The notes beneath the pieces were generated by a model that worked only from the letters and a program-made list of their open reading frames with translations, was not told where the DNA came from and ran no database searches. This document shows, piece by piece, positions 23,132 through 47,991 of a stretch of DNA of 64,000 nucleotides. Source of the stretch: Candidatus Omnitrophota bacterium (GTDB lineage: Bacteria > Omnitrophota > Omnitrophia > Omnitrophales > Aquincolibacteriaceae); contig JAYTHE010000026.1 in the NCBI GenBank assembly GCA_043732705.1, positions 12,136-76,135 on the forward strand. Direction: 5' to 3'. The position numbers were made by a program, and so were the translations under genes. Numbering within the stretch: position 1 is the stretch's first letter; each line of letters starts with the position of its first letter.

Positions 23132-23162
23132 CATGATTGACCACATGTTTTTATCTTCAGTC

Positions 23163-23190
23163 TGTCATTCTCGCGCAGGCGGGAATCCAG
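23163..23190. repeat. Single unit of the palindromic hairpin repeat family (TGTCATTCTCGCGCAGGCGGGAATCCAG)
   Basis: Read directly. Lies 14 nt upstream of ATG 23204, at the boundary of the AT-rich segment. Confidence 0.8.
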
Positions 23191-23203
23191 GAGTTTTTAA
23201 CGA

Positions 23204-24607
23204 ATGAATTTGTACGCGTTAAGTGTGACTTGCTTTGGAATCACATCTCTTTTGATAGGACTTTTGGTTTGGATTAAGCTTGAGTCAAAGGTCGGATTTT
23301 ATTATTTTTTATTTTCGGCTTTTGCAGGGTTGTGGGGAATGTTTGAAGGACAGCAGTTTTCTAACAATTTTGATTACTCGACATCCGTTTTCTTTGCTAA
23401 GTGCTCAAATGTTTCGGCGATTTTTATCGGACCATTCTGGTATCACTTCGCCTTGGCTTTTGAACGAAAAGAATATTCTTTATCTCAGAAAGCGACACTT
23501 TTTATTTTTTACTTGGCTGCGATTTTTATTTGTTCGTTTTCTTCATCACGTTTATTTGTTGCAGGTGTTCACGAAATAGTTGGAATTAAGTACTACACGA
23601 AGCCTGGTCCTATATGGCATATTTTCACTGTTTTGTTTTTTGCATCTATTCCATTTGGTTTCAAAGAACTGTTCCGACATTTAAGTAAATTAGCGGGAAA
23701 AGAGCGGGGACAATGTTGGTGGTTAATTTGTACAACGGGCGTTGGTTTCTTGGGCGGCGCTTTAACTTTTCCACCTGCTTATGGGATTCCATTACCTCAA
23801 TATGGTTTGTTGATCATGCCGCTTTACCCTTTGTTTATGGCTATCTCGATGATGAAATATGGATTGCTTACCGAAGAGAATTTAATTTTAGCGGCACACA
23901 AAGATAAGCTTGCTGCGCTGGGAGTTTTAACCGCAAGCATGAACCATGAAATCCGCAGCCCTTTATTTTTAATGCGAGGCATGATTGAAATCGAAGGCAA
24001 AGGCTCTCCATTAGGGATTAAGCTATTGAATCAAATCAATCGCGTAACAGATATCGTTGCTCGTTTAACACATTTTGCAAAAAAGGGTGTGGAAGAAACT
24101 GCACAAATTGAGCCTCTTAACTTGAATGAAGTTTTAGAAGATATTCGTCCTTTATTTCAGCATCAGCTCAATTATCAGCATATCGAATACAATCAAGAGG
24201 TTCCCAAAGACTTACCCAAAGTGATGGCCGATAGGCGCTATCTCGAAGAAATTTTATTTAATCTTATTTTGAATGCCTGCCAAGCTCTCCAGAATACGTC
24301 GCAACCAACAATTGAATTGTCAGCGCGTATTCTTGAAGACCAACGACTATCGACTAGCGACCATAGACTCGCTTCTCGGTCCTCCGGCCTTGGGTCTACG
24401 ATCGTTGTCACGATCGTAGACAATGGCCCTGGCTTTACAGACAAGCAACGCAAAAATGTTTTTAAGCCCTTTTACACCACTAAAGAAGAGGGAACGGGCC
24501 TTGGTCTTTATATCACCAAACAACTTGTTGAAAAATGCGGTGGGAAAATTGAAATTAGATCTAGTGCCGCTAATGGGACACAATTTGTTGTAAAGCTGTT
24601 GCTTTAG
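23204..24607 (+). CDS. Sensor histidine kinase (7TM N-terminal sensor - HisKA - HATPase_c), paralog
   Basis: 7TM N-terminus. H-box LGVLTASMNHEIRSPL. G boxes DNGPGF ... GTGLGLYI. Lower-GC DNA than its neighbours. Confidence 0.8.
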   Translation: MNLYALSVTCFGITSLLIGLLVWIKLESKVGFYYFLFSAFAGLWGMFEGQQFSNNFDYSTSVFFAKCSNVSAIFIGPFWYHFALAFERKEYSLSQKATLFIFYLAAIFICSFSSSRLFVAGVHEIVGIKYYTKPGPIWHIFTVLFFASIPFGFKELFRHLSKLAGKERGQCWWLICTTGVGFLGGALTFPPAYGIPLPQYGLLIMPLYPLFMAISMMKYGLLTEENLILAAHKDKLAALGVLTASMNHEIRSPLFLMRGMIEIEGKGSPLGIKLLNQINRVTDIVARLTHFAKKGVEETAQIEPLNLNEVLEDIRPLFQHQLNYQHIEYNQEVPKDLPKVMADRRYLEEILFNLILNACQALQNTSQPTIELSARILEDQRLSTSDHRLASRSSGLGSTIVVTIVDNGPGFTDKQRKNVFKPFYTTKEEGTGLGLYITKQLVEKCGGKIEIRSSAANGTQFVVKLLL

Positions 24608-24709
24608 GGTGACTAGCTAGACGCCTTTAAAAAGACCTTCTGGGATCATTTGAGGCTCTTTAGTTTCCCGTTAATTATTCCGATACATATATGTAAAAAA
24701 GAGGTGAAA

Positions 24710-25087
24710 ATGGACAAGAAAATTGTTGTTGTCGATGATGAAGAGATACTGGTTAGATCATTTTCTAAGTTGCTGGAGAAGCATGGTTATGAAGTATTTG
24801 GATTTAAAAAAGGGTCAGATGCAATAGCTTTTAGCGAGGAAGAAGATATTGACCTAATAATATGTGATATTCGCATGCCTGGTAAAAATGGAGTGGAAAC
24901 AATACAAGATATATTTAACCATCTAATTAAAGATAAAAAAAAATTAATGCCAGTTATTTTTGCTACAGGATATGCAGACAAGGAAATAGAAAAAGCGGCT
25001 GAAAATCTTAAGCCAGTAGCAATTTTAAGGAAACCATTTGACATCAATCATCTTCTCGAAATAGTGCAACGGACACTGAGTAAATGA
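24710..25087 (+). CDS. Single-domain response regulator (CheY-like receiver)
   Basis: RBS GAGGTG. MDKKIVVVDDEEIL ... LIICDIRMPGKNG ... K. No output domain. Confidence 0.8.
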   Translation: MDKKIVVVDDEEILVRSFSKLLEKHGYEVFGFKKGSDAIAFSEEEDIDLIICDIRMPGKNGVETIQDIFNHLIKDKKKLMPVIFATGYADKEIEKAAENLKPVAILRKPFDINHLLEIVQRTLSK

Positions 25088-26109
25088 TCAAATTTATAAA
25101 AGAATTTAAACCGGAAACCTCGCTTCGAAAAAGGCTAAAGGCGTACTTACAGCGCGTTAACCAAATAGAGGTGGAGCTTGATAATAAACCAGCTGAGTGG
25201 GGCCGTTATCAGAGCGAGTTCAATCAGGAAGTTAACTCCGTATTTCGCGATTTAATGATTTTTGAGAAAGAAAATGTCATAGGGGGGAAAGAGCAGCTTG
25301 TTTATAAGCTAAAGAGATTTTTTACTGAAAACCTGAGAGATGTTTTTGTTAGAGGGAAATGTCTCAAGCAAAGCCTTCATAAGCCCTATGGATATGCGGG
25401 CGACTTTGAAATTATTAATGACATATATCTTAATGAGCCACAGACGAAGGGGATTGAATTACTTTACGATAATTACTTTCAGATGTCCGCAATTTGTCAT
25501 GCTGTTCGTAATCGTAAGAAAGATTTTCAGAATTTTTTTATTAATAAAGCAAAAAGCAAAGTTGGACGGAATGTGAATGTGCTAGATTTGGCATCAGGTC
25601 CGTGCCGAGATGTCTACGAGGTAATGAGTGGACCATTAAAGAATAATAATGACGTTAGATTATTTTGCTTTGACGCGGATGAGAATGCTGTTGCTTTTGG
25701 ATCTAAGCTCTTTGAAGGAGATCAAAGGGTGGAATTTAGAAAGTACAATGCGGTAAGGATCGCATTAATGAAAAATATAAAAGAGGTGGTTCCTGAAAGA
25801 TTTGATTTAATTTTTTCCACGGGGTTATTTGATTATTTAGATGATAAAATTACTGTTAGGTTGATAAAAAATTTAGGCAAGCTGCTGAAGCCAGATGGCA
25901 TTTTAGCTATATCGGATGTTCGCGATAAATTTAGCAACCCATCGATTTATTTTATGGAGTGGGTAGCTGATTGGAACCTGATTTATCGGGGAGATGATGA
26001 GTTTAGAGAGCTTTTTGGTGAGGCTGGCTATAAAAAAGAAAATCTCGAATTCCGTTATGAGCAACAAGGAATGTTTCAGTATGTATTGGCGAGTGGACCT
26101 CTTCCCTAA
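25084..26109 (+). CDS. Class I SAM-dependent methyltransferase with uncharacterised N-terminal region
   Basis: Motif I VNVLDLASGPCRDV, then an acidic residue after beta2 and a motif-IV-like segment. Overlaps the receiver stop (ATGA). Confidence 0.6.
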   Translation: MIKFIKEFKPETSLRKRLKAYLQRVNQIEVELDNKPAEWGRYQSEFNQEVNSVFRDLMIFEKENVIGGKEQLVYKLKRFFTENLRDVFVRGKCLKQSLHKPYGYAGDFEIINDIYLNEPQTKGIELLYDNYFQMSAICHAVRNRKKDFQNFFINKAKSKVGRNVNVLDLASGPCRDVYEVMSGPLKNNNDVRLFCFDADENAVAFGSKLFEGDQRVEFRKYNAVRIALMKNIKEVVPERFDLIFSTGLFDYLDDKITVRLIKNLGKLLKPDGILAISDVRDKFSNPSIYFMEWVADWNLIYRGDDEFRELFGEAGYKKENLEFRYEQQGMFQYVLASGPLP

Positions 26110-26123
26110 ATGAATGATTAAGC

Positions 26124-28427
26124 ATGATACAGATTTTTTGTGGATACTCTGGCTTAGTTAACTTTATTGTATGTATCGCTCTCTCAGTCTTCCTTTTTTT
26201 TGCCAATAGTAAAAGTAAAATAAATCGAAGCTTTTCTCTTTGGTCTGCCTGCGTAGCATGGTGGTCATTAGGCTATTTTGTTTGGCTATTTACTCCCAAT
26301 AAAGCTTCAGCCCTATTCTGGACGCGGTGCCTTATGGCAGGAGCTATCATTATCCCGTCCGCCTTTTTACATTTCGCTTTGATTTATGTTAAAAAAGACA
26401 TCCAACAAAAAAAACTTGTGTTTGGAGCTTATGCTTTTAGTTTTATTTATCTTATTTTAGATTTTACTAGCTACTTCATTAAAGACGTTGAGTCCCGGTA
26501 TTGGTTTCGTTTTTGGCCTGTTCCTGGAATTAGCTATCACTTGTTTCAGATATTTTTTATTTTAGCGGTAATTTATTCGCACTATTTGTTATTTAAAAAT
26601 GCAATTGATAGTAAGGTGGAAAGAGAAAAAAAACAATACATGTTGGTTGCTTTTGGAACTCTAGTTGCATTTTCTGGAGGAAGCACCAATTTCTTTATTT
26701 GGTATAACATACCTATTCCCCCCGTGCTGAATATATTAGTTGTTGGTTATGTTGTTTTGATTGCGCACGCCATACACTATTACAAGCTGTGGGATTTACA
26801 GCTGATTATACGAAGAACTGTGGTTTTTGCGGGGTTGTTAGCATTCGTTTTTGGTATATATTCAATGGCAACTATTTTTGTTCGTAATGTGTTAAACGAC
26901 TTTTTTTACATTCGTCCTTTTTGGTCAAACCTTGCTTCAATTTTTCTTATTGTGCTTGGTTACGATCCCATTCGAACCTTTCTTATTAACCTCACAGATA
27001 AACATCTATTTCAAAAAGGCTACGATTACCACAAGGTTTTGAAGGATGCTTCGCGGGGAATGGCAAAGATTGAAAGTCTTAAGCATTTGCTCGGTCTTGT
27101 GCTTCATTTTATCACCATGAAAATGCGTGTTGAAAATGTTGCGGTGCTTTCATTCGAAAACAGTGAGCGTTTATTTAGGTTGGTTGCATCGCGAGGTTAT
27201 CAAGGGAATGTCTCAAGAGTTTCTTTGAATACCGATCATCCTTTGATGGCCATGTTGCGTGAAACACGTGAAGCAATTCAATTGCATGAAGTGACGGATA
27301 AGCTTGAGAGTGCTGAAGAATCTGAATCTAGAGGAGATTTGAAAATTATCGGCGATGAAATGAAAATGCTGGGTGCAAAGTGCGCCATTCCAAGTTTCTT
27401 GGGCAATGATCTTAAAAATGTCCTTCTTATCGGGGACAAAAAATCTGGTGAGCCGCTCACATCGGAAGACATCAGCCTTTTGATGACATTAGCGCAGGAA
27501 GCCTCAATTGCGCTTGAAAATGCGCGTCTTTACGATGAAGCCATCAAGAAACAAAGGCAATTAGGGCAAATCAATGATCAGCTTGAGCACTCCAAAAAAA
27601 TGCTCGTGAATGCGCTATCTGAAGCGGAAGGCGCGAATAAGCAACTGCAAGATACGCAGGCGCAATTGATTCACGAACAAAAAATGGCGACGCTTGGACG
27701 TTTAGCCGCATCCGTCGGACATGAAGTCAATAATCCACTCACAATTTTATCGATGAATGTGTCGCGCGCAATTTTAAAATTCAGAAAAAATCCTGAATTG
27801 AAGGTGAGCGAGATTCTCGATGTATTCGACAAAATGGAAAAGAATATTGAGCGTATCAAGGCTGTTGTGAATACCCTCACCGGGCTTTTGAAGAAATCAG
27901 AAAAAGGGAAGTTTGAACCACTGTCGTTGAAGCTAATTTTGGAGGAAACTTTGCCGCTCGTTCAATTTCAAACTTATATGGATAACTTATCCGGAACTGA
28001 GGTGGAATTAAATGTGCCGGGCAGCGTTCCGCTGATTCGCGGCGATCTCGAGCGCTTGCAGGAAATTTTTCTTAATTTATTCATTAACGCCTATCATGCC
28101 ATGGCAAACAAACGCTTTCGGAAAATCCGTGTCGATGCTGAACTTGATCCTGAGGCCGCGGGAATGGTCGCGATTCATTTTACGGATAATGGCTCGGGTA
28201 TGAGTGAAGACACAATGAAGAAAGTGTTTAATTATGGCTACACCACGAAGCCTCCCGGAAAAGGTTCGGGACTTGGGCTTTATATGTGCAAATATATTGT
28301 CGAATTGCACGGTGGGACAATTCGAGTGAAGAGCAAGTTGGGCGAGGGCACAACCTTCACAGTGACTTTGCCGGTGTATCAAGAAGAACAAACGGCTGCA
28401 AGCGCGAGCCAGCAAAAGGCCGGATAA
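26124..28427 (+). CDS. Sensor histidine kinase (7TM N-terminal sensor - GAF - HisKA - HATPase_c), third paralog
   Basis: 7TM region. GAF-like middle. Coiled coil. H-box LGRLAASVGHEVNNPLTIL. DNGSGM ... GSGLGLYM. Confidence 0.85.
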   Translation: MIQIFCGYSGLVNFIVCIALSVFLFFANSKSKINRSFSLWSACVAWWSLGYFVWLFTPNKASALFWTRCLMAGAIIIPSAFLHFALIYVKKDIQQKKLVFGAYAFSFIYLILDFTSYFIKDVESRYWFRFWPVPGISYHLFQIFFILAVIYSHYLLFKNAIDSKVEREKKQYMLVAFGTLVAFSGGSTNFFIWYNIPIPPVLNILVVGYVVLIAHAIHYYKLWDLQLIIRRTVVFAGLLAFVFGIYSMATIFVRNVLNDFFYIRPFWSNLASIFLIVLGYDPIRTFLINLTDKHLFQKGYDYHKVLKDASRGMAKIESLKHLLGLVLHFITMKMRVENVAVLSFENSERLFRLVASRGYQGNVSRVSLNTDHPLMAMLRETREAIQLHEVTDKLESAEESESRGDLKIIGDEMKMLGAKCAIPSFLGNDLKNVLLIGDKKSGEPLTSEDISLLMTLAQEASIALENARLYDEAIKKQRQLGQINDQLEHSKKMLVNALSEAEGANKQLQDTQAQLIHEQKMATLGRLAASVGHEVNNPLTILSMNVSRAILKFRKNPELKVSEILDVFDKMEKNIERIKAVVNTLTGLLKKSEKGKFEPLSLKLILEETLPLVQFQTYMDNLSGTEVELNVPGSVPLIRGDLERLQEIFLNLFINAYHAMANKRFRKIRVDAELDPEAAGMVAIHFTDNGSGMSEDTMKKVFNYGYTTKPPGKGSGLGLYMCKYIVELHGGTIRVKSKLGEGTTFTVTLPVYQEEQTAASASQQKAG

Positions 28428-28431
28428 AAGT

Positions 28432-28791
28432 ATGGGCAAGAAAATATTAATTGTGGATGATGAAGTCGGAATCGTGGATGAGATTCGCGATTTTCTTGTG
28501 GAAGAGGGTTATGAAGTTTTTACGGCGGATACAGTCAAGGCAGGTATTGCCGCTGTGACTTCTTTCCGGCCTGATTTATTGATTGTCGATATGAAATTGC
28601 CCGATGCTTCCGGAATTGAAGTGTTGCGCGTCTGCCGCGCTGAATTACCAAACACAAAAACAATGGTTGTGACGGGCTATGTCGATCAAAAGGTCATGGA
28701 TGAGGCCGAAAACCTGGGCCGCGATATGTTTTTACAAAAACCTTTTGACCTTGTCACATTGATCGAAGAAATTCAAAAGTTCCTTTCCTGA
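28432..28791 (+). CDS. Single-domain response regulator (CheY-like receiver)
   Basis: MGKKILIVDDEVGIV ... LLIVDMKLPDASG ... K. No output domain. Starts 5 nt after the kinase stop. Confidence 0.85.
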   Translation: MGKKILIVDDEVGIVDEIRDFLVEEGYEVFTADTVKAGIAAVTSFRPDLLIVDMKLPDASGIEVLRVCRAELPNTKTMVVTGYVDQKVMDEAENLGRDMFLQKPFDLVTLIEEIQKFLS

Positions 28792-31390: not shown

Positions 31391-32815
31391 CTATTTGGCG
31401 GCGACTGTCGAGCCTTCCCAGTCTTCAGCTTCTTTGGGGGTGGGTTGAAGCCCGTCCCACTTGTAAGTGAGGCCAAAGTTCCAAACATGCAGGAATGATT
31501 TGTATGTGCCGTCCACGGATGTCCCTAAAGGGTTGCTGATGTCATTTTGGACATGGCGATTGAGAAAGAAAACAGCAGTGTAGGCTGCATCAAAAGTAAG
31601 ATATTTCGTGAATGCATAAGAGATTCCAGCCGCCCAAATCATGCGGTTTGAATCCGGCACAACCGGTGTGAAGTGATTTTTGGGGATAGGCGTCCAATAC
31701 CAAAAGTTGCTGCCACGCAAAGTTAATTTATCGGTCATTTTATGACTTACACCGTACGCGAGAGAGTATCCGTTATGCCAATCTTTATCTGCTGCGCCGG
31801 TTGGTCCAGGAGTATTGAAAAGACTGTTTAGTAAATTATCATGAAAGCCGCTTAGCCCGCCCAACGATGTGCCGCTGATTGGATCCACAGGAATGTTGAG
31901 GTTGTCAAAAACAGACCAACGGGTCCAACCGAAATCAATTCCGACATCGGTTTTCTCAGTGGCTTTATAGTTATATCCCCAAGTCATATTCATGGGTAAA
32001 TGGACTTTGGTGTGAATGCCGGTTTCAAATTTACCGGTCGTCCCGCCTCCGGCAAAGTCGTCTAAAATATTCTCACCCTTAAGTAGACCCTTAGCGCGGA
32101 CCAAAACAGGACTGCGGAAGTAAAAACCAATTTTATGTTTGGGCGCCGGTTTTGCCAAAATCCCCATATGCCAACCCCATGCATTCCCGGATAAGTTGCC
32201 GCGAACCTGTCCGTCGGGAGTGGTGGGTACGCCTGTAATGGCTTTATTGGGATAAGCCGCGATTTGGCCTAAGTCAAAAATACGATACCACATTGGACCG
32301 CCGCCCATTGAGAGCCAATCTGTAAATCGAAAAGAGGCAACGGGTTTGATCGCATACATTTTAAGCCAGTTGCGAGAGCCAGTGTAATGCGTTGCCGTAA
32401 AACCGGAATCATATTTATTGGAAAGACCAAACGGAGAATCAACGCCAAGACCGAGTGCTAATCGGTCATTGAAAACTTTACCCGGATTAACCGAAAGATA
32501 AGTTGTTGGCGCGACAATGGTTGTTCCCGAACTGCGTGAAGAACCTCCGCCCGGCAAATCACTATCCATACGTGTCCACATATTTAAAAAATTGGCATTG
32601 CCTTGAAATTGGACGCCCGGTAAATCAACCAATCCCGCAGGGTTCGATGAAATGGAAGCGGGCTCATCAGGATCAGCTGTCACTGCGCCGCGAGCATAAG
32701 CACGGGGGCTAAAAGTAGCATTTTCGAAACCGGCGCCGCCGACGGCATAAGAAGAAGCGGGGAGTGCGATGAGTACAATGAGTATGAGAGCTGATACTTT
32801 TTTGAAATGCTGCAT
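31391..32815 (-). CDS. FadL/TodX-family outer membrane transport protein
   Basis: Signal peptide. N-terminal GAGFENATFSPRAYARGGAVTADPDEPASISSNPAGL motif typical of FadL-like proteins. Beta-rich with a C-terminal aromatic residue. Confidence 0.7.
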   Translation of the reverse strand: MQHFKKVSALILIVLIALPASSYAVGGAGFENATFSPRAYARGAVTADPDEPASISSNPAGLVDLPGVQFQGNANFLNMWTRMDSDLPGGGSSRSSGTTIVAPTTYLSVNPGKVFNDRLALGLGVDSPFGLSNKYDSGFTATHYTGSRNWLKMYAIKPVASFRFTDWLSMGGGPMWYRIFDLGQIAAYPNKAITGVPTTPDGQVRGNLSGNAWGWHMGILAKPAPKHKIGFYFRSPVLVRAKGLLKGENILDDFAGGGTTGKFETGIHTKVHLPMNMTWGYNYKATEKTDVGIDFGWTRWSVFDNLNIPVDPISGTSLGGLSGFHDNLLNSLFNTPGPTGAADKDWHNGYSLAYGVSHKMTDKLTLRGSNFWYWTPIPKNHFTPVVPDSNRMIWAAGISYAFTKYLTFDAAYTAVFFLNRHVQNDISNPLGTSVDGTYKSFLHVWNFGLTYKWDGLQPTPKEAEDWEGSTVAAK

Positions 32816-33125
32816 TTTTTTCCCCTCCGACGCATGCGTCGTTCCCTAAAGTCAGTATTTATTCCGCTTCATTCTAACGGCAATTTCCGGAATTTCTTCA
32901 GATTTAAATCAAGATAAAGAAAAGTCTTTTGATTGAAGGTCCGCGATTTTATCTCCGCGAGCTCAAAATCAGAAATAAATCGATCTCGTTAAACCTTCTT
33001 ATAAAGTTTTCAGTACTCAAGTGAATGATATTAATAAACGTTTTTTATCGTTTTTTGGTATCCGCTCTTCCGCTTTTCTTTCATTCGCGCATGCTATTTC
33101 CTGAGTCTCTGTTTAAACTCCAAAC

Positions 33126-33299
33126 ATGACGCATCCTGAAAAAATAAACACAGATAGTTGGATCGAAATCAAATTGATTGTTGAGCCGGAGGAATATCGA
33201 TTCCTTCAAAAGCAAGCTCAGCGCAAAGACATGATGGTTTCAGACCTAATTCGGCAAATTGTTCTGCGCTACATCGGTAATGAACGGGGGAGTTTATGA
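33126..33299 (+). CDS. Small (57 aa) ribbon-helix-helix-like protein, translationally coupled to the giant gene
   Basis: Absent from the ORF table (below 60 aa). Reads MTHPEKINTDSWIEIKLIVEPEEYRFLQKQAQRKDMMVSDLIRQIVLRYIGNERGSL. The beta-alpha-alpha pattern is CopG/RHH-like. Its TGA overlaps the giant gene's ATG (ATGA at 33296-33299). No strong SD. Confidence 0.4.
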   Translation: MTHPEKINTDSWIEIKLIVEPEEYRFLQKQAQRKDMMVSDLIRQIVLRYIGNERGSL

Positions 33300-36200
33300 G
33301 GTTAAAAAAAACAGTCAAGAAAGTGACCGCGCTTTTTTTGATAGTTACTTTTTCTTGGACAAATTTAATTGGAGCAAATAGCTGGGCGGCAGTCGAGCCG
33401 ATTCAAATGGTTAATGGGCAAGCCACAGCTGTTACCGATCCTTTTGCCACGAATACAAGTACTACTCAGATGGGAACGGTTCCCGTTGATTTTTTAGCGC
33501 AACAACCTGTGGTGACAACCGCTGCCGCAGTCTCCTTGGTTTCAATTGCTCCTACAGCTGCATTAAAATCTACCAACGTATCAAGTTTGTTGGGGAACCC
33601 TAAACCTTATATTCTTTCTAGTTCAACTTCCGCGACAAATCTGAGCTATGTAAACAATGCATTCAATTTTGGTTATAGTGTTCCAAATACTAACGACAAA
33701 TCAGGATTTTCTGTTTCATTTGATAATACAAGTACGGCCTTGATAGAAACGCAAAGCCTAACAAAAATGACCTTGGGTTTGAAGGGCACTGCTTCGACAA
33801 TTCAACTCGAAATCGTGGACTCATCCGGAATGCACGATAAGATTTTACTCACAGGTATTTCAAACACAGTCGAGCAGTTTTGGAAGATTCCAACGGCCTA
33901 CTTTTCTGCTTCAGTGAATAAAGCGAAAATTACTCAAATTAATTTTATTGTTGATCAATCGAATACTACAACCACAGCCCGATCGGGAACTTTGAATGTT
34001 CGGTTGAACGGATTGGATGTCGCTTCGCCAACTGCGCCTCTTGTGCAATCTGCGCCGCCCGCATTTTCAAATGTGAATAATATTACCTTGTCAGGAGCCA
34101 AAGAAGCGAACACATCACTTTTGATTAATGGTGTTGAAGTTATGCCGCGTAATAACTCAACAGCCTGGTCTTATCAGGTGAGCTTGCCCATAGAAGGTAA
34201 ATATATATTCAGTCTGATTGTCAAAAATTCGCTTGGAAAAATCAGTGCGGCATCTACGGTTGCGATAACGCGTGATACTGTTTTACCAACCGGAACAATC
34301 ATAATCGATTCAGGGGCTCTTTATTCCACTGACTTAAATGTGGCGTTGAAGCTTTCGGCGGTAGACGCCGGCAGCGCGGTCAAAAAAATGAGTTTTTCAG
34401 CGGACGGAGTGAATTGGAGTGCTCAAGAAACTTATGTGACTGCAAAAACTCTGACGCTTTCCTCAGGCGACGGTAATAAAACGGTGTATGTGAAATTTTA
34501 TGACGGAGCGGGGAATGCTAGCGCCGTATATTCCAAATCAATCATTGTTGATACTTTACCGCCTTCCGGAACAATTAAAGTGAATGATGGTGTGGCGATG
34601 ATTAATCAACGGGTAGCAATGTTGAATCTTTTAGCTGTAGACGTTGGATCCGGTGTCAGCAAAATGAGTTTTTCAACTAACGGGACTTCTTGGACAACCG
34701 CAGAAGTCTATGGGACAACTAAAGATTGGATATTTTCAGCGGGTGATGGGAATAAAATAGTTTATGTAAAGTTTTTGGATAAGTCGGGTAAATGGTCAAC
34801 GCCGATATCAGCAGCTGTTTTGATGGATACAATCAAACCGACAGGATCAATTAATATTAATTCCGGAGCGGCTTATGTTAATTTGCCTGAGATTGCGCTT
34901 AATCTTTCTGCTGCCGATCTTGGGGGAGCAGGCATCGGCAGCATGAGTTTCTCGTCTGACAATGTGAATTGGACAGTGCCGGAAGCTTACACGACTACCA
35001 AATCCTTTGTGCTTTCTCCCGGCGATGGGAATAAAACAATTTATGTAAAATATTTTGATAAAGCGGGGAATGTGAGTGTCGCTTATTCAAAATCCATTCT
35101 ATTGGATACGATAGCACCAACGGGTACGATGCGTATTAACGGAGGCGAGTCTTTTGTTAGTCAGACAGCCGTAACTCTTAATTTAACCGCAGCTGATTCC
35201 GGTACGGGGCTCGATAAGGTAAGTTTTTCGAATGATGGTGTGAATTGGAGCGTGGCCGAAACATTTGCTGCCGAGAAAAATTGGGTGCTTGCGATTGGCG
35301 AAGATCTTAAAACTGTTTTTGTTAAGTTTCTTGATAAGGCCGGTAATTGGTCAAGTGTAATTTCTAATAGCATTTTTCTGGATGTCACCGCGCCCACGGG
35401 GGCAATCAATATTAACTCCGGCACTGCTTACACAAACTCAAAAAATATCACATTAAATTTATTAGCAAATGATTCTGGCAGTGGTATCGATAAGATGAGT
35501 TTCTCAGTAGATGGAATTAATTGGAGCGCGCTTGAAAATTTTACGGCTTCCAAAGCATGGATGCTTTCTGACAATGATGGGAATAAAACGATTTATGTAA
35601 AATATTTTGATAAAGCGGGGAATGGGAGTGTCGCTTACTCAAAGTCCATTATCCTGGACACTATCGCACCGATTATTGATCTTTTGAATGCGCCGACTCA
35701 TGCAAATAGCGCAAGTTACATGACTCAGTATCGTGTGGATGGCGTATTAAAAGACAAAGCTTTTACGCTTAGCTCCGGAATGAATGCGATTTCAATTCGG
35801 GAAATAGACTTTGCGGGAAATGAAACAATTCGCACATGGAATGTGGAATATTCTACGACGGAAGACATCAATCTTGCCGGCGGTGGGTTGCAACATTTTG
35901 AAAATGGAAAGATTCAGTATCAGGTTAATGCGGACGGGAGCCGGGTTAATTATAATTCGGATGGATCGATTGCGAATTTTTCATGGGGCATAGCGAATGG
36001 AAATACAAAGGTCACATTTTTAAATGACGCACAAAACTCTTTAGAAATACGCGACGCATCCAATCAATTAATCAAGATCATCTCAAATGTAAAACCCCCA
36101 GAGCCTAATTTGAGCAACGCTCTTAAAATTAATTTGCAAGATGGAATCGAGACTTACTATTCAGAAGGTGTCTTGAAGGAAATCCGGACTGCGGAAAATG

Positions 36201-39200
36201 TGAAGCTTTTTAATTTAACGATGTCCGCGCCTGTCTCCGCAAGTGAAGTGCCCGAAATACGGGATGCCGTGATTGCTTATCCTAATGGTTCGATTGACAT
36301 TATGTGGAATAAATTTTTGATCCGCAGAATCACAGTTGATGGATCAATTACAGATATGCTGCCTGACGGAACGATAGGCAGGGAAATTAGCGAGGAAATT
36401 GAGCAAACTTATCTCGGAATTTATGATGCCTCCGGAAATGTTGCAGGGACAAAAATTCTTTCGAATCAAGGCGACGAAGTCACTTACGACGAAAAGGGAA
36501 TTTTAAAAGAAGTCAAAGGGCATGATGGTAAGCATTTTGTTTATGATCGCACACAAAGTGGGAACCAGTATCTTTTAAGCCTAAACGGAGCACTTTCCAG
36601 TTCTGCGTCGGACCAAACGCTTAAATCAGGGAAATATGCGCAAGACGGAAGCGTTCTTGAGCTTGATTTTCAAAATGGCAGCAAAGTAACCTTTGAAAAC
36701 GGACAAATTAAACAGGCTGTAAATGCACAAGGTGAGACGGTTAATTACAGTCAACTGCTAAGCAATGGCCTCGCACAGGGGCTAATGGTGAATCGGGGCT
36801 TAGCCAATTTTACTTATGACATAACCGGTTTTCTCAGCCAGATTCAAACGGAACAAGGAATCATTACCCGCGAACAAGTGGACTCTAATCACGATGGTCT
36901 GCTCAATGACCAAGATACGGTCGATTTGCTGTTGGAGCTGACAGGCGGGAATAAACTCACGGATTTTCAATTGGATGTGAATGGGAAAATTTTAAATGGG
37001 ATTATCGAGACGCGCGAAGGTATAAAGCAGAAAATTGAAAATGGAATTCTTAGAGAGCTAATTACCGCAGATGGCAAAAAATATCTGATACATAACGGAC
37101 AGGCAGAACTTGATACTTGGGCATTTCAGGATGGCATAGTTGTGAAGTATGGCGGTACAAGTATTCAGCAGATTTTGTTTCCAAATGGGAAGCGTTTTGA
37201 GCAAGTGCAGCTTAACGCACAAAAAGAAATTGCAAGCTATGTTGAAATTGATGGTAACACACAAAGTTTTTTTGAAAATGGAATTTTAAAAAAGCGTGTT
37301 TTTGATGGGGTTCAGATTTTTTACTCAATAGATGGACGAGCTCAAAAAATAATCCGTGCGAATGGTGCCGAGGAATTTGTTGAGCATCAATTTGATGTGA
37401 ATGGAAATTGGGTTGGATTAAATCTGGTTAGTGCGGATGGCATGCTTGTTTACGATGAGGATGGAAAGCTTACCGCTATTTTGACATCAGGCTTAACCGC
37501 GCAGGTCGAAGATAGCACGATTAAGAGTCTTTCAACGCGCTTTGGAAATATACAAGATCCCGTTTTTAATGCTAAGGGCAATCTGAACGGAGAGGTTGTT
37601 TTATCAGACGAACGAAAACTTCTCATTCAGGATGGCAAACTTTTACGTATAACTTTTAAAAATGGAACACAGATTGATTGTGCCAATGGTCGCATCTCAC
37701 GCGTTGAAAATTCAGAGGGAATTTATCAGCTTACCTACTTGGAAAACTCTAGTGCCCTTGAGGATGTTAAAGTTAATTATGTCTTAAGCCCCGGTACTTC
37801 TGCCACCGGACTTACGGTTGAAATGAGCCTCGCAAGCTATTTACTAGCTAATCCTTATTCTGAATTTTCAAAAATCATAAGTCCTCGCCCTGCGAAAGAT
37901 ATTTTTGCGGGTGGAATACAAACACAGTTAGGCGCTCATGGTTTACTTGATTTATCAAAGATAGTTGAAGACCAAGATCGCGGAGATACTTACTCCGTAG
38001 GAGGGATTTTTGATCCAAACTTATCAGATATTTATAATTTAGATGGCAACTATAACGGCGGATATCTTAGCAAAAGTCTCATGGGGATGATTGCTTCTGA
38101 TTTACTAGATTTAGATGGAGATGGTGATTTAGACCGGATCTTTGTTGATTCTTCGAAAAATTTTTGGTGGGTTCAAAAATTTGAAAATGGAAGTTTCCTT
38201 TCTGCTGAGAAGTGGATCGGGATAGAGGCGATTGGAAATACAGTCAATAATTTTGCTTTAAGATTCTCTAATGACTCAAACACCGCGGTTATGGGTAACT
38301 TGCTGGATATGAACGGGGATGGCAGGCCTGATCGCGTAGTAGCTTCTGTAAATGAAAATCCCGTTTGGTATGTTCAATTAAATAATGGTGTCGGTTTTGA
38401 TCCGGCTAAAATTTGGAGTAATGTGCAGCCGCTTATCCAAATCAATGCCGGCGATCCTATCAACAAGTACGCGCTACAAGTTCGCGAGAATTCTTCGCAA
38501 AATCAGTTTTTTATCTCTGATTTAATTGACATGGATGGTGACAATTTGCCGGATCGCATTATTCAATCGCAAGCAAGCCCTGTTCCTGGCGCGGATCCAT
38601 TCAATCATTGGTTTTTTCAAAAAAATAACGGACATGGGTTTGATGAAGCTGTCATTTGGAAAGGGATTAACAATTCCTTTGATCTGGATCCTAAGATCGG
38701 CAGCGGCATGAACGTTTTTTTTAATAGTACAACTTGGTTTGATGAAGATCTGCGCCTTGCATTTACAAGCGCCCATGCAAGTTTTAATAACGCTTGGACT
38801 AGCAAAAATATTAATGCTTACCGTGCGACTTTCCTTCTAACTAAGTCAATGGTTAAAGGGCCTCCGGGAATCTTGAATTGGCTTAATAGCCTGGAACCGC
38901 AGCTTTTCGGAACGACATGTGTAAAGAACATATGCACTCAATATATAAAGGAAAACGTATACCAAGCGGCCAACGCACTTTTTTCAAACATTGATTCTGT
39001 CCAAAGAAATATTCTAACCACGAGCGTTCTAAAGGACATGAATGGCGATGGCCGGCCCGATCGAATTTTACTTAAACAGAAGAATCCGAGTAATGCTAAT
39101 TCGGGCTATAGCTGGTACATCCAATGGAATAATGGCAGCGGCTTTGATCCCGCTGTTCTTTTTGATGATCAAGTTCGCAGTGTGTCGGGCAGCATTGCGC

Positions 39201-42200
39201 AGCAGGGAGCATCCACCGCCATTCAATCTTTTTTTGCCTGGGATCAGAAAGAAAAGACACGCAGCTATCTGAGTTATTTAGCGGATGTCACGGGTGACGG
39301 CCTTCCGGACCGCATCACTTTAGATTCTTGGAGCATGGTTCCGGCAAATCGGTGGTGGGTTGAAGTGAATGATGGAAAAACTTTTAAGGATGCTGTTGCT
39401 TGGGATGGTGTGGAAGGTAGTGCTTTAGCCCAAATCGCGCCTTCCCAAGGTATTGAAGGAGCCGCGACGCAGAGTTCGAATGTAAGCGTGATATCAAAAC
39501 TAATTGATATAAATGGCGACAAAATTCCCGACCATATTTTTTTTAAGGAAGGAACAAATCAATGGGTTGTGCAGTATGGAACAGGGCACGGCTTTTTACC
39601 TTCTCAGCCGATGGAAATCCAGGGTATTCGGAACAAAGAAGCATTTAATGCGGCTAAATACGAATATGCGCACATAAGTTTGCGCGCTCAATATCCTGAT
39701 CTTGTTCAAAATGGCAAATTGGTAATTAGGCTTATCGATGAAAATAATAAAGAAGTTCAAAAATGGGAAATTACGGGCGCAAACAATAGCTGGAAAGATC
39801 AATATTTGGCGATTGACCGTGCAAAAACAGGCGGCCGCTATCTGGATGCGCGTTGGGAGCTTAATGCAGGGGTAGTTGCAGCCGATCCGCAAATTTTAGT
39901 CGATGATGTAAGTTTAATTTCGTTGCATCCCAATGCAAGTACGGAATGGCTAGATTATTTGCTTACGGAAGGGAATGTGATTAATGCCGTGCAAGCGGCG
40001 GCGAATGATCCGGCGATTCATGATTTAGCTCAAGTCGTTAATGCGCAAGACACATTTGATTGGAAAAAACTGCTCGCGGTCGAAACCAAAATTAATTTCA
40101 ATGCAACCGGCGCGGTTAGCGGCGCCGAAAAATTAAATGGTGAAACCTCACAAGTTCAAACTTCGGGCAACACAACCACGATTACTGTGGCGCATACCGA
40201 TGGAACTGTTACTCAAACCACAGTTCCCACCGCAGGTAGTTCAAATAGCTACACAAAAAGCATTAACTATGACAATGGAACACCGGATAATTTAACGGAT
40301 GACTACACTGAGATAGCTATGATTGCTTATGATCGTATGCGAAGTGTGACTCGTGACCACAGTCATAAACAACCGCTTCAATATTCTTATGAATTTGATG
40401 AATTAAATCGAGAGATTACAGTTATCTATGATCCTGATTCTAATGAAACTGAAAAATCACGGGCGGTTTCCGGATTAAATGGGGACGAAAATAAAATTGT
40501 CGCGCAAATCGCGGCCAACGGGGTTGAAACTCGCTACACCTACAATGCTTCCGCTGAGCTCACGCGCACCGAAATTACTTATAAGGGGCGCGTACGCGAA
40601 ACTTTTGAGCAAAGTATTACTGCGGACGGCCTTCACGCGCTCAAAACCGAATCGGGCTCAATCGAGTTTTATAATGAGCAAGGACAAATTGTCGGCCATC
40701 GCACAACCGATGGCTATTATTACAAGCATGAATTTGCTCCGGCTAAAACCATAGAGACTTCTATAACCACTAAAACAGTTGTGTTGTGCGATTCCGCAAA
40801 GCAAGATTGTTCAGCAATTCCTGTCGCGCAACGCACGCTTACAGTTCAAATTCCGACAGTTACCTTGACAGACTGTTTAATTAATTGCGAAACCATTCAT
40901 CAGGTTACACTCGATCATCTTACCGACTTAGATGGCAATATTGCTTTTTATACAGGCTCGCAGTTAAGCAGTCTTGAATTATCAACGGGCCTTAAGATGA
41001 CTTTCGACGGAATGATTACCGAAAATAGCAAAGATGTTAATGGTAATGATATTGAAATTACCAAGCCCAAGAACGTGGTCATTTTTCATCAAGATGGAAC
41101 GATCACTGAGTTTAAGAATGGTCTGCCATACTCTGTCACTTCCGCAGCTGGCCACGTTATTTCTATTGAGCCCGACACAGAGACGACGACTACAGGTCGT
41201 GTTGTATTAAAAAATCCTTCCTCCTCCGCCGAGTTTCACTACGCTGAAGCGGTCAAGCTTTGGAATCAGAAAGTTTTGGCTAATTTTGATAAATATCAAT
41301 TGCCGGACAGCCAAGTTGTGCAGGTGGAATATGCAAAGACGGGCAACAAGATCGTTACGCAGCTTTTCGCGTCAGGTGGGCGGGAAATGTATGACGCTGC
41401 CGGGCATATTGACTTTGTGGTTTCCGAAGAAGGGGATCGCATTATTGATTATGACTATGATGCAGCCGGCAATCCTACCGCGATCCATTTAGAAGGCTCG
41501 CGCCGCAAACTTGATCAGACCATATTAGATCTTAAAATTGAAATAGCTTTAAAACAGTATCAGTCTTTACTTGATGTGGCAGAACGCGAGCAGATTTTAA
41601 ATGAAACAGTAGAAAGTCAGTACATTGTTCAACGCAATCAGTTAATCGCGTTACGCGCGCAAATTGAATCGCAGCGAAACCAACTAGCCTCGATTAAAGT
41701 TAAAGGCAAAGCCGGTAAAAATTCAATATCGGACGCGATGCAGCAAATTAATGTTGGTCTCGGGCAGGTGAATCAGGCTTTATACCAATTGCTCGAAAAT
41801 CGTACGCAAGCGCTCGCGAATTTACAAGGCCAGGTGAAAAATCTTAATACGCAGATTAATGACCAAACAACGCAGGCTTACACGGACATTTCAAATAAAG
41901 AAAGAGAAGTTCAAAATTCAATCCTGACGCAGGAAATTTCGCCGATCGTTTATCACTGGTACCGCACAATTCTTGGTCGCGATCCCTCTGAGTCGGAGTA
42001 TGAAGCTGCCAAGTCTTTGGCCAACTATAGCTCGGGGACATTTAACCTTACAAGTCTTAAGGCGCAGCTTCAAAATAGCCCTGAATATGTCCAACGCACA
42101 GCGGAAGTAGCCGCGATTAAAGCCGCAGTTAAGACGCAATTGCTTAATTATTTAGCGGCAGATGACGCCGGCAAGCAAGCCTTTGTCGCAGGTTTAGGAA

Positions 42201-45748: not shown

Positions 45749-46107
45749 TTAAATCTTTATCCGAAACTCGCAAATCAATTGTAGAAATAGTTGGGTTTTT
45801 GAAAGTGCACAATGATTTAGTTTGGACTAAATATTTGAGTGGAATGCTTTCGGAGTTTGACAGGGTTTTTGGTGGAGCCGAAGTAGATCAGCAGGGTGGA
45901 AAAAGTATTTTAGAAAAAATCGACAAGCTATTCGGTGGCATGGGCTCATTGAATGATTTGAATATTTACAAAGAGAATGGTCATATTGTAAGTAATGAAA
46001 GAGAAGCCAATGTGGAATTAAGCAAATTACGATCAAGATTATTTGATAATGTTCAGAGAAGTATTTTGGAGATGCAGCAACAACAGGAGAGATCGGAACA
46101 TTTCTAA
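45745..46107 (+). CDS. Small (120 aa) cytoplasmic protein translationally coupled to the giant gene's stop; candidate immunity/partner protein
   Basis: Its ATG at 45745 overlaps the giant gene's TGA at 45746-45748 (ATGA). No signal peptide. Acidic, helical. Motif SILEKIDKLFGGMGSLNDL. The assignment rests on position only. Confidence 0.5.
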   Translation: MIKSLSETRKSIVEIVGFLKVHNDLVWTKYLSGMLSEFDRVFGGAEVDQQGGKSILEKIDKLFGGMGSLNDLNIYKENGHIVSNEREANVELSKLRSRLFDNVQRSILEMQQQQERSEHF

Positions 46108-46741: not shown

Positions 46742-47040
46742 TAATCGAACCCGGCACTTTTAGAAATGTTCCGATCTCTGTTCTAAGATATGCCAGTGAA
46801 CAAAATGGAGCTGGTAGTTTTTTAACCAAAAGTAATTATTCAGATGTCGCTCAAGCTGTTAGTGGATTAAACTTGGAGCCAACTAATAATTTAGCAAGTT
46901 ATAAACAAGTGGTTATGGTGGAAAAACCCACGCTGGTTTTAGAAGGTAAAATTGCCGGAAGTGGTGATGGTTCTGTGCAATCAATAGTCCTCGAGAAAGA
47001 TAGCTTTGTTTTTCAGGCAGGAGAAAGTATTAATGATTAA
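46735..47040 (+). CDS. Hypothetical small protein (101 aa), coupled to the transposase stop
   Basis: ATG 46735 overlaps the RAYT stop by 7 nt. AT-rich DNA. No motif recognised. Confidence 0.4.
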   Translation: MLVIEPGTFRNVPISVLRYASEQNGAGSFLTKSNYSDVAQAVSGLNLEPTNNLASYKQVVMVEKPTLVLEGKIAGSGDGSVQSIVLEKDSFVFQAGESIND

Positions 47041-47960: not shown

Positions 47961-47991
47961 AAATAGAACTGATTTGTGCGGATTTAAAAAT

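What the first reader, a model, noticed from the sequence alone, without database searches (positions are those of the whole stretch)
33126..33299. 57-aa ribbon-helix-helix-like ORF translationally coupled to the giant gene start
The sequence MTHPEKINTDSWIEIKLIVEPEEYRFLQKQAQRKDMMVSDLIRQIVLRYIGNERGSL has the beta-strand-helix-helix pattern of the CopG/Arc/antitoxin RHH DNA-binding fold. Its stop TGA shares nucleotides with the ATG of the 4150-aa ORF (ATGA). This suggests a dedicated regulator or antitoxin-like component co-translated with the giant protein. It is below the 60-aa cutoff of the ORF track, so it would be missed by default annotation.
Basis: seen in the sequence. Interest (0 to 1): 0.6.

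Follow-up and report, generated by a model that had tools for sequence, protein, structure and literature searches.

The report
Small RHH gene heading giant-gene operon
A real, conserved 57-residue ribbon-helix-helix (RHH) protein gene overlaps the start of a 4150-residue secreted surface protein gene in an Omnitrophota-like bacterium, and it is most likely a small DNA-binding regulator made together with the giant protein.

Summary
ORF 33126..33299 (+, 57 aa) ends in TGA inside ATGA, and that ATG starts the 4150-aa ORF 33296..45748.

The ORF is a real gene. A search of 1.8 billion representative proteins found a tiny family of about 9 lineages, one from a Candidatus Omnitrophota MAG. dN/dS is 0.09-0.36 with synonymous sites near saturation.

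In 8 of 9 lineages the stop overlaps (ATGA) the start of a homologous long secreted protein. An SD-like CGGRG 8-13 nt upstream is kept even where the encoded C-terminus differs.

AlphaFold (pLDDT 84) gives an extended segment plus two helices. All top-50 PDB fold matches are RHH proteins. A family profile hits the RHH regulator AvtR (E=7.8e-5). Pfam hits (NikA-like, DUF6290, RHH_1) stay below threshold.

The antitoxin reading fails: there is no small toxin and no C-terminal toxin-binding tail, and the partner carries a signal peptide.

The missing SD is shared by all relatives. They keep TAnnCT exactly 6 nt before the start codon, which suggests a leaderless mRNA (inferred). An AT-rich imperfect palindrome about 75 nt upstream is a candidate operator.

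Best reading: a CopG/Arc-style operon-leading autoregulator. It is a new member of a known kind and of moderate interest.

The parts
33126..33299 (+). Small RHH protein gene (57 aa, ATG start, TGA stop). It is the first cistron of the operon.
   Evidence: ORF and translation. Nine-lineage family with dN/dS 0.09-0.36. RHH fold.
33296..33299 (+). ATGA stop/start overlap between the RHH gene and the giant gene.
   Evidence: Read directly. The same 4-nt overlap is present in 8 of 9 lineages.
33285..33292 (+). SD-like CGGGGGAG for the giant gene, lying inside the RHH coding sequence.
   Evidence: CGG(G/A)G is kept 8-13 nt before the ATG in all 8 coupled loci. This includes L009 and L013, where it encodes different amino acids (N-G-E instead of E-R-G).
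33296..45748 (+). Giant gene (4150 aa). It has a signal-peptide-like N-terminus, OmpL47-type Ig-like barrels, FG-GAP/VCBS repeats, YD/RHS repeats, a coiled coil, a hydrophobic block at aa ~3195-3500, and a C-terminus with no family match.
   Evidence: The N-terminus and large blocks are homologous to the genes downstream of the RHH relatives.
33114..33119 (+). TAAACT hexamer exactly 6 nt upstream of the RHH ATG. It is a candidate -10 element of a leaderless transcript (inferred).
   Evidence: TAnnCT at -12..-7 in 8 of 8 loci. Mean pairwise identity is 0.81 there against 0.39 at -50..-13 and 0.47 at -6..-1. It is the only start among 44 ORF starts in the window with TAnnnT at that position.
33027..33062 (.). 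AT-rich imperfect palindrome (GATATTAATAAACG-N8-CGTTTTTTGGTATC). It is a candidate operator (inferred).
   Evidence: Inverted repeats lie at the aligned position in L001 (15-nt arms, 87%), L007 (17 nt, 76%) and L006 (19 nt, 79%). The window copy is weaker, about 73% by hand count. The half-site consensus has one 1-mismatch site in the 64-kb window, this one, and the rest is at chance level.
32990..33005 (+). Conserved block TAAAC-N2-CTTATAAAG about 125 nt upstream of the RHH start. Its role is unknown; it may be an alternative promoter element.
   Evidence: Conserved in the window, L001, L006, L007 and L009 at fixed distance from the start codon.
45745..46107 (+). Third cistron (120 aa, DUF6966). 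Its ATG overlaps the giant gene's TGA, again as ATGA.
   Evidence: Conservation in relatives could not be checked because the contigs end first.

Best explanation
ORF 33126..33299 encodes a genuine stand-alone RHH protein of a small, previously unnamed family restricted to an Omnitrophota-like clade. It is the first cistron of an operon whose second cistron is a giant secreted or surface protein. The two are translationally coupled through a conserved ATGA stop/start overlap, and the giant gene's SD lies inside the RHH coding sequence. Those points are shown by sequence and comparison. The remaining steps are inferred. The protein dimerises and binds DNA in its own upstream region, probably at the conserved AT-rich palindrome about 75 nt upstream. 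There it would act as a CopG/Arc-type autoregulator, setting and buffering transcription of the very costly 12.5-kb gene. Because it is made from the same mRNA, its level would report operon output. Its own translation probably starts without an SD, possibly on a leaderless mRNA whose -10 element is the conserved TAnnCT 6 nt upstream of the ATG.
For: Gene reality. Exhaustive phmmer found 5 clear homologues, and a profile search found 2 more. The frame is kept in 9 lineages, and dN/dS is 0.09-0.36 with pS 0.35-0.95, above 0.5 in nearly every pair.

RHH fold. The AF2 model has pLDDT 84 with an extended segment plus two helices. All top-50 Foldseek PDB hits are RHH proteins (ORF56, ParG, PutA, NikA, Arc, CopA-SO, AvtR, CopG), with prob up to 0.99 and TM up to 0.86. 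The family profile matches AvtR 4hv0 at E=7.8e-5, followed by weak, non-significant matches (E 0.25-0.83) to HP0222, 2k1o and 2kke. Sub-threshold hits: NikA-like in 6 of 9 members, DUF6290 in 4 of 9, RHH_1 in 1 of 9, and RelB NF046040 at 4.5e-5. V38, S39 (start of helix 2) and R43 are invariant, and the '(M)VSDLxRQ' stretch is nearly so.

Coupling. ATGA is present in 8 of 9 lineages. In 7 of the 8 the downstream product has the homologous signal-peptide N-terminus and 36-58% identical blocks, and two loci show at least 2544 and 5524 aa. In L001/L002 only 20 downstream residues are held, and they do not resemble it. SD-like CGGRG is kept regardless of the amino acids it encodes.

Local regulation. 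The upstream 140 nt aligns almost without indels, with a conserved palindrome and hexamer. No extra half-sites occur elsewhere in the window.

Context. The surroundings are ordinary chromosome: RND efflux, histidine kinases, glycogen genes and topA.
Against: No Pfam or NCBIfam RHH model reaches its curated cut-off, and the individual Foldseek E-values are only 0.06-1.

The monomer model shows no DSSP strand. That is expected without the dimer partner, but the ribbon is therefore not modelled.

By alignment to CopG from memory, the presumed DNA-facing strand residues are E15, K17 and I/V19. This face is less basic or polar than in classic RHH repressors, and family pI ranges from 5.2 to 9.2.

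The palindrome is weak in the window itself and in L009. If TAnnCT is the -10, the palindrome lies upstream of the promoter, whereas classic RHH repressor operators overlap it. No canonical -35/-10 pair is found on the + strand.

No TSS, binding or expression data exist. Only 5 loci have enough upstream sequence to compare.
Confidence: 0.6

Rival explanations
1. It is the antitoxin of a type II toxin-antitoxin-like pair in which the giant protein, or a domain of it, is the toxin.
For: The best NCBIfam hit is RelB-family antitoxin, and Pfam DUF6290 is antitoxin-related, both sub-threshold. The gene order, RHH first with a 4-nt overlap, is typical of TA operons. The giant protein carries YD/RHS repeats, as polymorphic toxins do.
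Against: The partner is 4150 aa, not about 100 aa, and has a signal-peptide-like N-terminus conserved in relatives, so it leaves the cytoplasm. Most members end 8 residues after helix 2, which leaves no toxin-binding tail. No TA toxin domain was found in the giant protein, and it has no Rhs DPxGL core end. There are no PADLOC hits. Polymorphic-toxin immunity genes lie downstream of the toxin, and here that position is taken by the DUF6966 ORF.
Confidence: 0.06
2. Only the act of translating the small ORF matters. It would be a leader ORF that delivers ribosomes to the giant gene's start, and the peptide has no function of its own.
For: The ATGA overlap and the internal SD are conserved in 8 lineages. 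The ORF is short and lacks its own SD.
Against: dN/dS of 0.09-0.36 and nine invariant residues show selection on the protein sequence. The peptide is predicted with confidence to fold as RHH. There is no conserved RNA structure at the junction for ribosomes to open: alifold found 0 pairs and the fold z-score is 0.56. L011 keeps the protein without the coupling. Delivery of ribosomes can still operate alongside a protein function.
Confidence: 0.08
3. The RHH protein does not bind DNA but binds protein or RNA. It could be a dedicated chaperone or export adaptor for the nascent giant protein, or a factor acting on the 12.5-kb mRNA.
For: There is strict genetic linkage and co-translation with the giant gene. 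The presumed DNA-facing strand face (E, K, I/V) is unusually non-basic, and pI is near neutral. No operator has been proven.
Against: All structural neighbours are DNA-binding RHH proteins. The canonical helix-2 N-cap Ser and the conserved Arg are present. A conserved palindrome lies upstream. I know of no precedent for RHH proteins acting as secretion chaperones (own knowledge).
Confidence: 0.1
4. It is a relaxosome accessory protein (NikA/MbpA type) of a mobile element.
For: The best Pfam hit is NikA-like (7e-5, in 6 of 9 members), and NCBIfam MbpA scores 0.007. An IS200-like transposase ORF lies 13 kb downstream.
Against: The hits are below the curated cut-offs. The window has no relaxase, T4SS or oriT context and looks chromosomal. 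tblastn found no match in 72,556 plasmids or 50,697 phages. The conserved partner is the giant gene, not a relaxase.
Confidence: 0.02
5. It is a chance ORF in the 5' leader of the giant gene.
For: A 57-codon open frame is not rare by chance. It has no SD.
Against: The frame, the length and nine invariant residues are conserved across lineages that are only 48-84% identical, with saturated synonymous change. A confident fold prediction also argues against it.
Confidence: 0.02

Closest known systems
CopG (RepA) of plasmid pMV158, in the copG-repB operon
   Same: A 45-aa stand-alone RHH with no extra domain. It is the first gene of an operon, is co-transcribed with a larger downstream gene, and represses its own promoter (own knowledge). 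CopG structures 2cpg, 1ea4 and 1b01 are among the fold matches.
   Different: CopG is a plasmid copy-number control protein and its partner is a replication initiator. Here the setting is chromosomal and the partner is a 4150-aa secreted protein. RHH_1 (the CopG family) is matched by only 1 of 9 members, below cut-off. The CopG operator overlaps the -35, and here the operator position is unknown.
Arc repressor of phage P22 (arc-ant operon)
   Same: A 53-aa RHH that is the first cistron and autoregulates the operon encoding the downstream protein (own knowledge). Many Arc chains appear in the fold matches with TM 0.6-0.8.
   Different: Arc is a phage protein with a 21-bp operator overlapping Pant and a polar or basic DNA-reading face (Q9, N11, R13; own knowledge). 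The family here has E/K/I at the equivalent positions. No phage match was found.
AvtR (Acidianus filamentous virus 6 gp29; PDB 4hv0)
   Same: It is the best sequence-profile match, E=7.8e-5 over helix 1 to helix 2, with 42% identity over 33 aligned residues in the fold search. It is an RHH transcription regulator according to the PDB title.
   Different: AvtR is an archaeal virus protein of about 100 aa, longer than a single RHH unit. There is no giant-gene linkage.
Type II antitoxins with an RHH N-domain (RelB, ParD, CopA-SO, AtaR, TacA, DUF6290)
   Same: An RHH DNA-binding domain, the first gene of a bicistronic operon, a 4-nt overlap and autoregulation. They appear among the fold and profile matches.
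   Different: Those proteins carry a C-terminal toxin-neutralising segment and pair with a small cytoplasmic toxin. Neither feature is present here.
CdrS (small archaeal RHH co-transcribed with ftsZ2)
   Same: A very small RHH gene immediately upstream of, and co-transcribed with, a structural gene it helps control (PMC8406309, listed; details from own knowledge).
   Different: CdrS is archaeal and acts as a global cell-division regulator. No sequence relationship was tested.
Lambda cI from PRM (leaderless repressor mRNA)
   Same: If the TAnnCT-N6-ATG inference is right, this is a repressor translated from a leaderless mRNA as the first gene of an operon, as with cI-rexA-rexB (own knowledge).
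   Different: cI is a helix-turn-helix protein. The leaderless status here is only inferred from conserved spacing.

Membership tests
Ribbon-helix-helix (RHH, MetJ/Arc) superfamily | Strand-helix-helix topology of about 45 residues | tested here: met
   The AF2 model (pLDDT 84) has an extended segment at 11-20 (block pLDDT 86) and helices H21-33 and H38-56. The top-50 PDB fold matches are all RHH proteins, with TM normalised to target up to 0.86.
Ribbon-helix-helix (RHH, MetJ/Arc) superfamily | Significant sequence or profile match to a curated RHH family | tested here: inconclusive
   NikA-like scores 23.3 bits against a cut-off of 27, DUF6290 18.9 against 27, and RHH_4 12.2 against 25. RelB NF046040 scores 23.7 against 50. 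The family profile matches PDB AvtR at E=7.8e-5. The hits are consistent but all below the curated cut-offs.
Ribbon-helix-helix (RHH, MetJ/Arc) superfamily | Helix-2 N-terminal Ser/Thr phosphate cap and alternating hydrophobic strand pattern | tested here: met
   V38-S39 and R43 are invariant. The strand W-(I/M)-E-I-K-(L/F)-(I/V)-(V/L) places hydrophobic residues at I14, I16, L18 and V20.
Ribbon-helix-helix (RHH, MetJ/Arc) superfamily | Obligate dimer forming a two-stranded antiparallel ribbon that binds the DNA major groove | not testable with these tools
   Only monomer prediction was available, and there are no binding data.
Operon-leading RHH autorepressor (CopG/Arc/Mnt type) | Stand-alone RHH gene as first cistron, co-oriented and contiguous with the regulated gene | tested here: met
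   There is a 4-nt overlap with the downstream gene in 8 of 9 lineages.
Operon-leading RHH autorepressor (CopG/Arc/Mnt type) | Repeated or palindromic operator at its own promoter | tested here: inconclusive
   A conserved imperfect palindrome lies about 75 nt upstream in L001, L006 and L007, and is weaker in the window and L009. Its position relative to the promoter is unknown, and no canonical promoter was found.
Type II toxin-antitoxin antitoxin (RelB/ParD/DUF6290 type) | Adjacent small cytoplasmic toxin gene | tested here: not met
   The downstream gene encodes 4150 aa with a signal-peptide-like N-terminus and no TA toxin domain.
Type II toxin-antitoxin antitoxin (RelB/ParD/DUF6290 type) | C-terminal toxin-binding extension after the RHH domain | tested here: not met
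   Six of 9 members end about 8 residues after helix 2. L009, L013 and L011 have 12-15 extra, poorly conserved residues.
NikA/MbpA relaxosome accessory proteins | Linkage to a relaxase, oriT or mobilisation genes | tested here: not met
   The window has no relaxase or T4SS genes. No plasmid or phage matches were found.
Translationally coupled gene pair | Stop codon of the upstream gene overlapping or adjacent to the downstream start, with the downstream SD inside the upstream ORF | tested here: met
   ATGA at 33296..33299 and CGGGGGAG at 33285..33292. Both are conserved in 8 lineages.
Translationally coupled gene pair | Downstream translation depends on upstream translation | not testable with these tools
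   This needs a reporter with a premature stop. No sequestering RNA structure was found, so any dependence would come from termination-reinitiation, not from unfolding.
Leaderless mRNA | Transcription start at, or within a few nt of, the start codon | not testable with these tools
   The only evidence is indirect. TAnnCT is at -12..-7 in 8 of 8 loci and T at -34 is invariant. The -35 is weak.

The most novel reading that the evidence does not exclude
The RHH gene is part of a dedicated expression gate for giant genes in this Omnitrophota clade. A leaderless mRNA would begin at the RHH start codon. The only efficient route for ribosomes onto the 12.5-kb cistron would then be termination-reinitiation at the conserved ATGA. 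The co-made RHH dimer would feed back on the promoter, or act on the mRNA or the nascent giant protein. Together these steps would meter both transcription and ribosome loading of an extremely costly gene. That would be a first cis-encoded control module for bacterial giant genes.
Probability: 0.15. Interest if true: 0.65.

Novelty: new member of a known kind. Interest (0 to 1): 0.4.

Why it matters
Omnitrophota are noted for very long, probably predation- or attachment-related surface proteins (bioRxiv 10.1101/2023.11.21.568195 and 10.64898/2026.06.07.730766). Term searches of those two papers found no conserved regulator of such genes. One RHH 'antitoxin' is merely listed among flanking genes in the second paper.

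This small gene gives a concrete, testable handle on how one family of 4000-5500-aa proteins is controlled. It comprises a 57-75-aa DNA-binding candidate, a conserved upstream region with a palindrome, and a fixed ATGA junction.

It also shows that proteins of fewer than 60 aa without Pfam coverage can be validated purely by comparison. The broader significance is limited. The family is tiny, about 9 lineages among 1.8 billion representatives, and the mechanism proposed is a classic one.

Tried and rejected
1. Peptide-pattern scans of genome contigs and metagenome contigs with the single sequence found nothing. With the alignment they returned only loci already known (L012 = L007, L015 = L013).

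2. A search with the giant protein's first 330 aa returned one distant 488-aa relative (P0013, L016) with no RHH gene upstream. That is too little to say how often relatives of the giant protein lack the RHH gene.

3. I tested for a conserved RNA hairpin hiding the giant gene's SD. RNAalifold found 0 pairs in 8 sequences and the fold z-score was 0.56, so this idea is rejected. I also considered pairing between the upstream 'ACUCC' and the SD 'GGAGU'. The complementarity is expected for any anti-SD-like string, and the motif is better explained as the 3' part of TAnnCT.

4. An apparent second, divergent RHH copy in L009 is a 66-nt exact inverted duplicate at the contig end. It is an assembly artefact.

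5. The C-terminal 'WKSK' of P0002 results from a gene caller reading TGA as Trp. The DNA has the same ATGA junction.

6. An Rfam scan of 32600..33500 gave only chance-level hits.

7. The sigma-70 consensus scan found no + strand promoter.

8. tblastn against plasmids and phages found no match, and PADLOC gave no hit.

10. Pfam on the giant protein's C-terminal 1250 aa gave only a weak Peptidase_C39 hit (E=0.012) and no toxin domain.

Full report
**Observation**

A 4150-aa ORF runs from 33296 to 45748. The motif ATGA at 33296..33299 holds both the start of the giant ORF and the stop of the small one.

A purine-rich CGGGGGAG (33285..33292) lies inside the small ORF just before the giant gene's ATG. 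No SD-like sequence precedes 33126.

**Is it a gene?**

A word-indexed search of 5.8 billion proteins found only the identical protein and one 84% relative. An exhaustive phmmer search of 1.84 billion representatives found five clear relatives of 45-61 aa, with E from 5e-14 to 1e-6. It also found a few proteins made of tandem RHH-like modules. A profile search added two more relatives.

The family therefore has nine lineages in all:
- the window, which equals L003
- L001/L002
- L004/L005
- L006
- L007/L008/L012
- L009/L010
- L013/L015
- L014
- L011

L007/L012 is a contig of a Candidatus Omnitrophota MAG from a glacier-fed stream. The window's FadL-like gene, small ORF and giant gene are syntenic with that contig, so the window is very probably from a related Omnitrophota lineage. 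That assignment is an inference.

Reading the DNA shows that all relatives keep an upstream start about 15 codons before the conserved W-M-E-I-K motif. Several gene calls had truncated to an internal Met. The window has Ile at that position, so it can only use ATG 33126. The window also differs from its relatives by an in-frame 3-codon deletion in the N-terminal tail.

Nei-Gojobori estimates give dN/dS of 0.09-0.36 for almost all pairs, with pS typically 0.5-0.8, so synonymous sites are near saturation. This is purifying selection on a protein. The 'chance ORF' reading is excluded.

**Fold**

With the 9-sequence alignment, AlphaFold2 gives mean pLDDT 84. It shows a confident extended segment at residues 11-20 and helices at 21-33 and 38-56. 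DSSP assigns no strand in the monomer, as expected for a fold whose sheet forms only in the dimer.

Foldseek against the PDB returns RHH proteins in all 50 top places. They include ORF56, ParG, the PutA N-domain, NikA, Arc, CopA-SO, the MatP RHH, CdbA, AtaR, ParD, TacA, AvtR and CopG. Probabilities reach 0.99 and target-normalised TM reaches 0.86. Individual E-values are only 0.06-1 because the domain is so small.

A profile of the family matches the RHH regulator AvtR (4hv0) at E=7.8e-5. Weak, non-significant matches (E 0.25-0.83) to HP0222, 2k1o and 2kke follow. Pfam and NCBIfam hits are all of RHH type but below the curated cut-offs: NikA-like in 6 of 9 members, DUF6290 in 4 of 9, RHH_1, RHH_7, RHH_4, RelB and MbpA.

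V38, S39 and R43 are invariant within a nearly invariant '(M)VSDLxRQ' stretch, and strand residues I14, I16, L18 and V20 are hydrophobic. Both features fit the RHH signature. I therefore accept the RHH fold. The family is a new, unnamed branch of that superfamily.

**Linkage to the giant gene**

In 8 of 9 lineages the small gene's stop overlaps the next gene's ATG as ATGA.

In 7 of these 8 the downstream product begins with the same signal-peptide-like segment and the 'AEPIQM.DGQPQAV.DPF' motif. These products share 36-58% identical blocks with the window's giant protein, although domain content is mosaic. For example, L013 lacks the OmpL47-type repeats and has Laminin_G domains. Two contigs show sizes of at least 2544 and 5524 aa. 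In L001/L002 only 20 downstream residues are held before the contig ends, and they do not resemble the signal peptide.

The SD-like CGG(G/A)G 8-13 nt before the ATG is kept in all eight. This includes L009 and L013, whose small proteins have a 15-residue C-terminal extension, so the motif there encodes N-G-E instead of E-R-G. That indicates selection at the nucleotide level for the downstream ribosome-binding site.

No conserved RNA structure sequesters the junction: alifold found 0 pairs and the fold z-score is 0.56. Coupling, if obligatory, would therefore work by termination-reinitiation and not by unfolding.

The most distant member, L011, is uncoupled and sits before a different gene. The protein therefore has a function separable from the junction.

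**Upstream region**

In the window, L001, L006, L007 and L009, the 140 nt before the start codon align almost without indels. Three features stand out.

1. *TAnnCT hexamer.* It lies exactly 6 nt before the start codon in all 8 loci that reach that far. Mean pairwise identity is 0.81 there, against 0.39 and 0.47 in the flanks, and T at -34 is invariant. With the start codon's first base as +1, these are the canonical -12..-7 and -34 positions of a sigma-70 promoter. That suggests a leaderless mRNA and would explain the missing SD. It is an inference only. The -35 is weak and the consensus scan finds no + strand promoter. None of the other 43 ORF starts in the window has TAnnnT at that position, and only about a third have an SD-like motif.

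2. *AT-rich imperfect palindrome.* It is centred about 75 nt upstream. The arms are 15 nt at 87% complementarity in L001, 17 nt at 76% in L007 and 19 nt at 79% in L006. In the window (33027..33062) the match is about 73%, and it is weak in L009. This is a candidate operator. The consensus half-site has one near-perfect match in the 64-kb window, at this place, and otherwise occurs at chance frequency.

3. *TAAAC..CTTAYAAAG block.* It lies about 125 nt upstream and its role is unknown.

**Mechanism**

Shown:
- The small ORF is a real RHH-fold protein gene.
- It is contiguous with the giant gene.
- The stop/start overlap and the internal SD are conserved.

Inferred:
- The protein dimerises and binds DNA in its own upstream region.
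- It autoregulates the operon, which runs RHH gene, giant gene, then the DUF6966 ORF. The last of these is also joined by ATGA, at 45745.

The closest functional analogues are CopG in the copG-repB operon and Arc in the arc-ant operon. Both are 45-53-aa stand-alone RHH proteins that are first cistrons and repress their own promoters (own knowledge; their structures are among the fold matches).

Caveats:
- The predicted DNA-facing strand residues (E15, K17, I/V19, by analogy with CopG) are less basic than in classic repressors.
- Family pI ranges from 5.2 to 9.2.
- The operator position relative to the true promoter is unknown.

**Rivals**

*Antitoxin.* This reading fails two defining tests. 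There is no small cytoplasmic toxin, because the partner is a 4150-aa protein with a signal peptide. Most members have no toxin-binding C-terminal tail. PADLOC finds nothing.

*Relaxosome accessory (NikA/MbpA).* There is no relaxase context, and no plasmid or phage relatives were found.

*Leader ORF only.* This is contradicted by the selection on the protein.

*Non-DNA-binding role.* A role as chaperone, export adaptor or RNA binder cannot be excluded, but it has no positive evidence.

**Comparison with the literature and novelty**

Two papers on Omnitrophota giant genes describe conserved secretion-system and glycoside-hydrolase neighbours. In term searches of their text, neither describes a conserved small regulator. 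One lists a single 'ribbon-helix-helix antitoxin' among flanking genes without further comment.

The family has no Pfam model and no source-given name. It is a new, very small family of a well-known kind, an operon-leading RHH regulator, in a new context, a giant surface-protein gene. I rate it 'new member of a known kind' with interest 0.4.

**Confidence by step**

| Claim | Confidence |
|---|---|
| Real gene with RHH fold | about 0.95 |
| Translational coupling | about 0.8 |
| DNA-binding autoregulator | about 0.6 |
| The palindrome is the operator | about 0.4 |
| Leaderless mRNA | about 0.4 |

Noticed in passing
window 45745..46107 (+): A 120-aa ORF with Pfam DUF6966 (E=1.4e-9) starts with an ATG that overlaps the giant gene's TGA, again as ATGA. 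The operon therefore has at least three overlap-coupled cistrons. Its position would suit an immunity or accessory protein, but nothing supports that.
   Followed up: partly
window 46154..46741 (+): An IS200-like Y1 transposase ORF (Pfam Y1_Tnp, 7.4e-13) lies directly downstream of the operon. It is followed by several ORFs (46735..50068) with no significant Pfam match and no PADLOC match.
   Followed up: partly
window ~32859..32912, and 32829..32842: A strongly conserved non-coding block (TTATTCCGCTTCATTCTAACGGCAATTT...TTCTTCAGATTTAAATCA) lies next to the divergent FadL-like gene. It is kept in L001, L006 and L007. A GC-rich palindrome CGACGCATGCGTCG lies just upstream of the FadL SD in the window and L007. 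There is no Rfam match. The block is probably the FadL promoter or leader.
   Followed up: partly
L001/L002 (P0002): The public gene call reads the TGA of the ATGA junction as Trp (…GSL-W-KSK), so the caller evidently used a TGA-as-sense codon table on these short contigs. The downstream frame in L001 starts MKIEIGRKRTFERCHPRIAV. It does not resemble the usual signal peptide before the contig ends.
   Followed up: partly
L009:1-80: A 66-nt exact inverted copy of the contig's own RHH gene sits at the contig end. It is an assembly artefact, not a second divergent gene.
   Followed up: yes
window 20888..28791 (+): Three paralogous histidine kinases with the 7TM HisKA_7TM N-domain (20888..23131, 23204..24607, 26124..28427) are followed by a stand-alone response-regulator receiver (28432..28791).
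   Followed up: no
P0009, P0010: Two unrelated metagenomic proteins of 154 and 405 aa consist of several tandem RHH-like modules each (2 and 4 matched stretches). They resemble this family at E of about 1e-4.
   Followed up: no
window giant protein aa ~3195-3500 (about 42878..43795): A 300-residue Gly/Ala/Ile-rich hydrophobic block with multiple predicted membrane-like segments lies deep inside a protein that has an N-terminal signal peptide. It is preceded by a weak Peptidase_C39-like match (E=0.012). This architecture is unusual for an RHS/YD-repeat protein, and there is no DPxGL core end.
   Followed up: partly
L016 (P0013): A 488-aa protein shares the giant protein's N-terminal domain (42% identity over 62% of the query). 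It is not preceded by an RHH gene; a multi-pass membrane protein lies upstream.
   Followed up: partly
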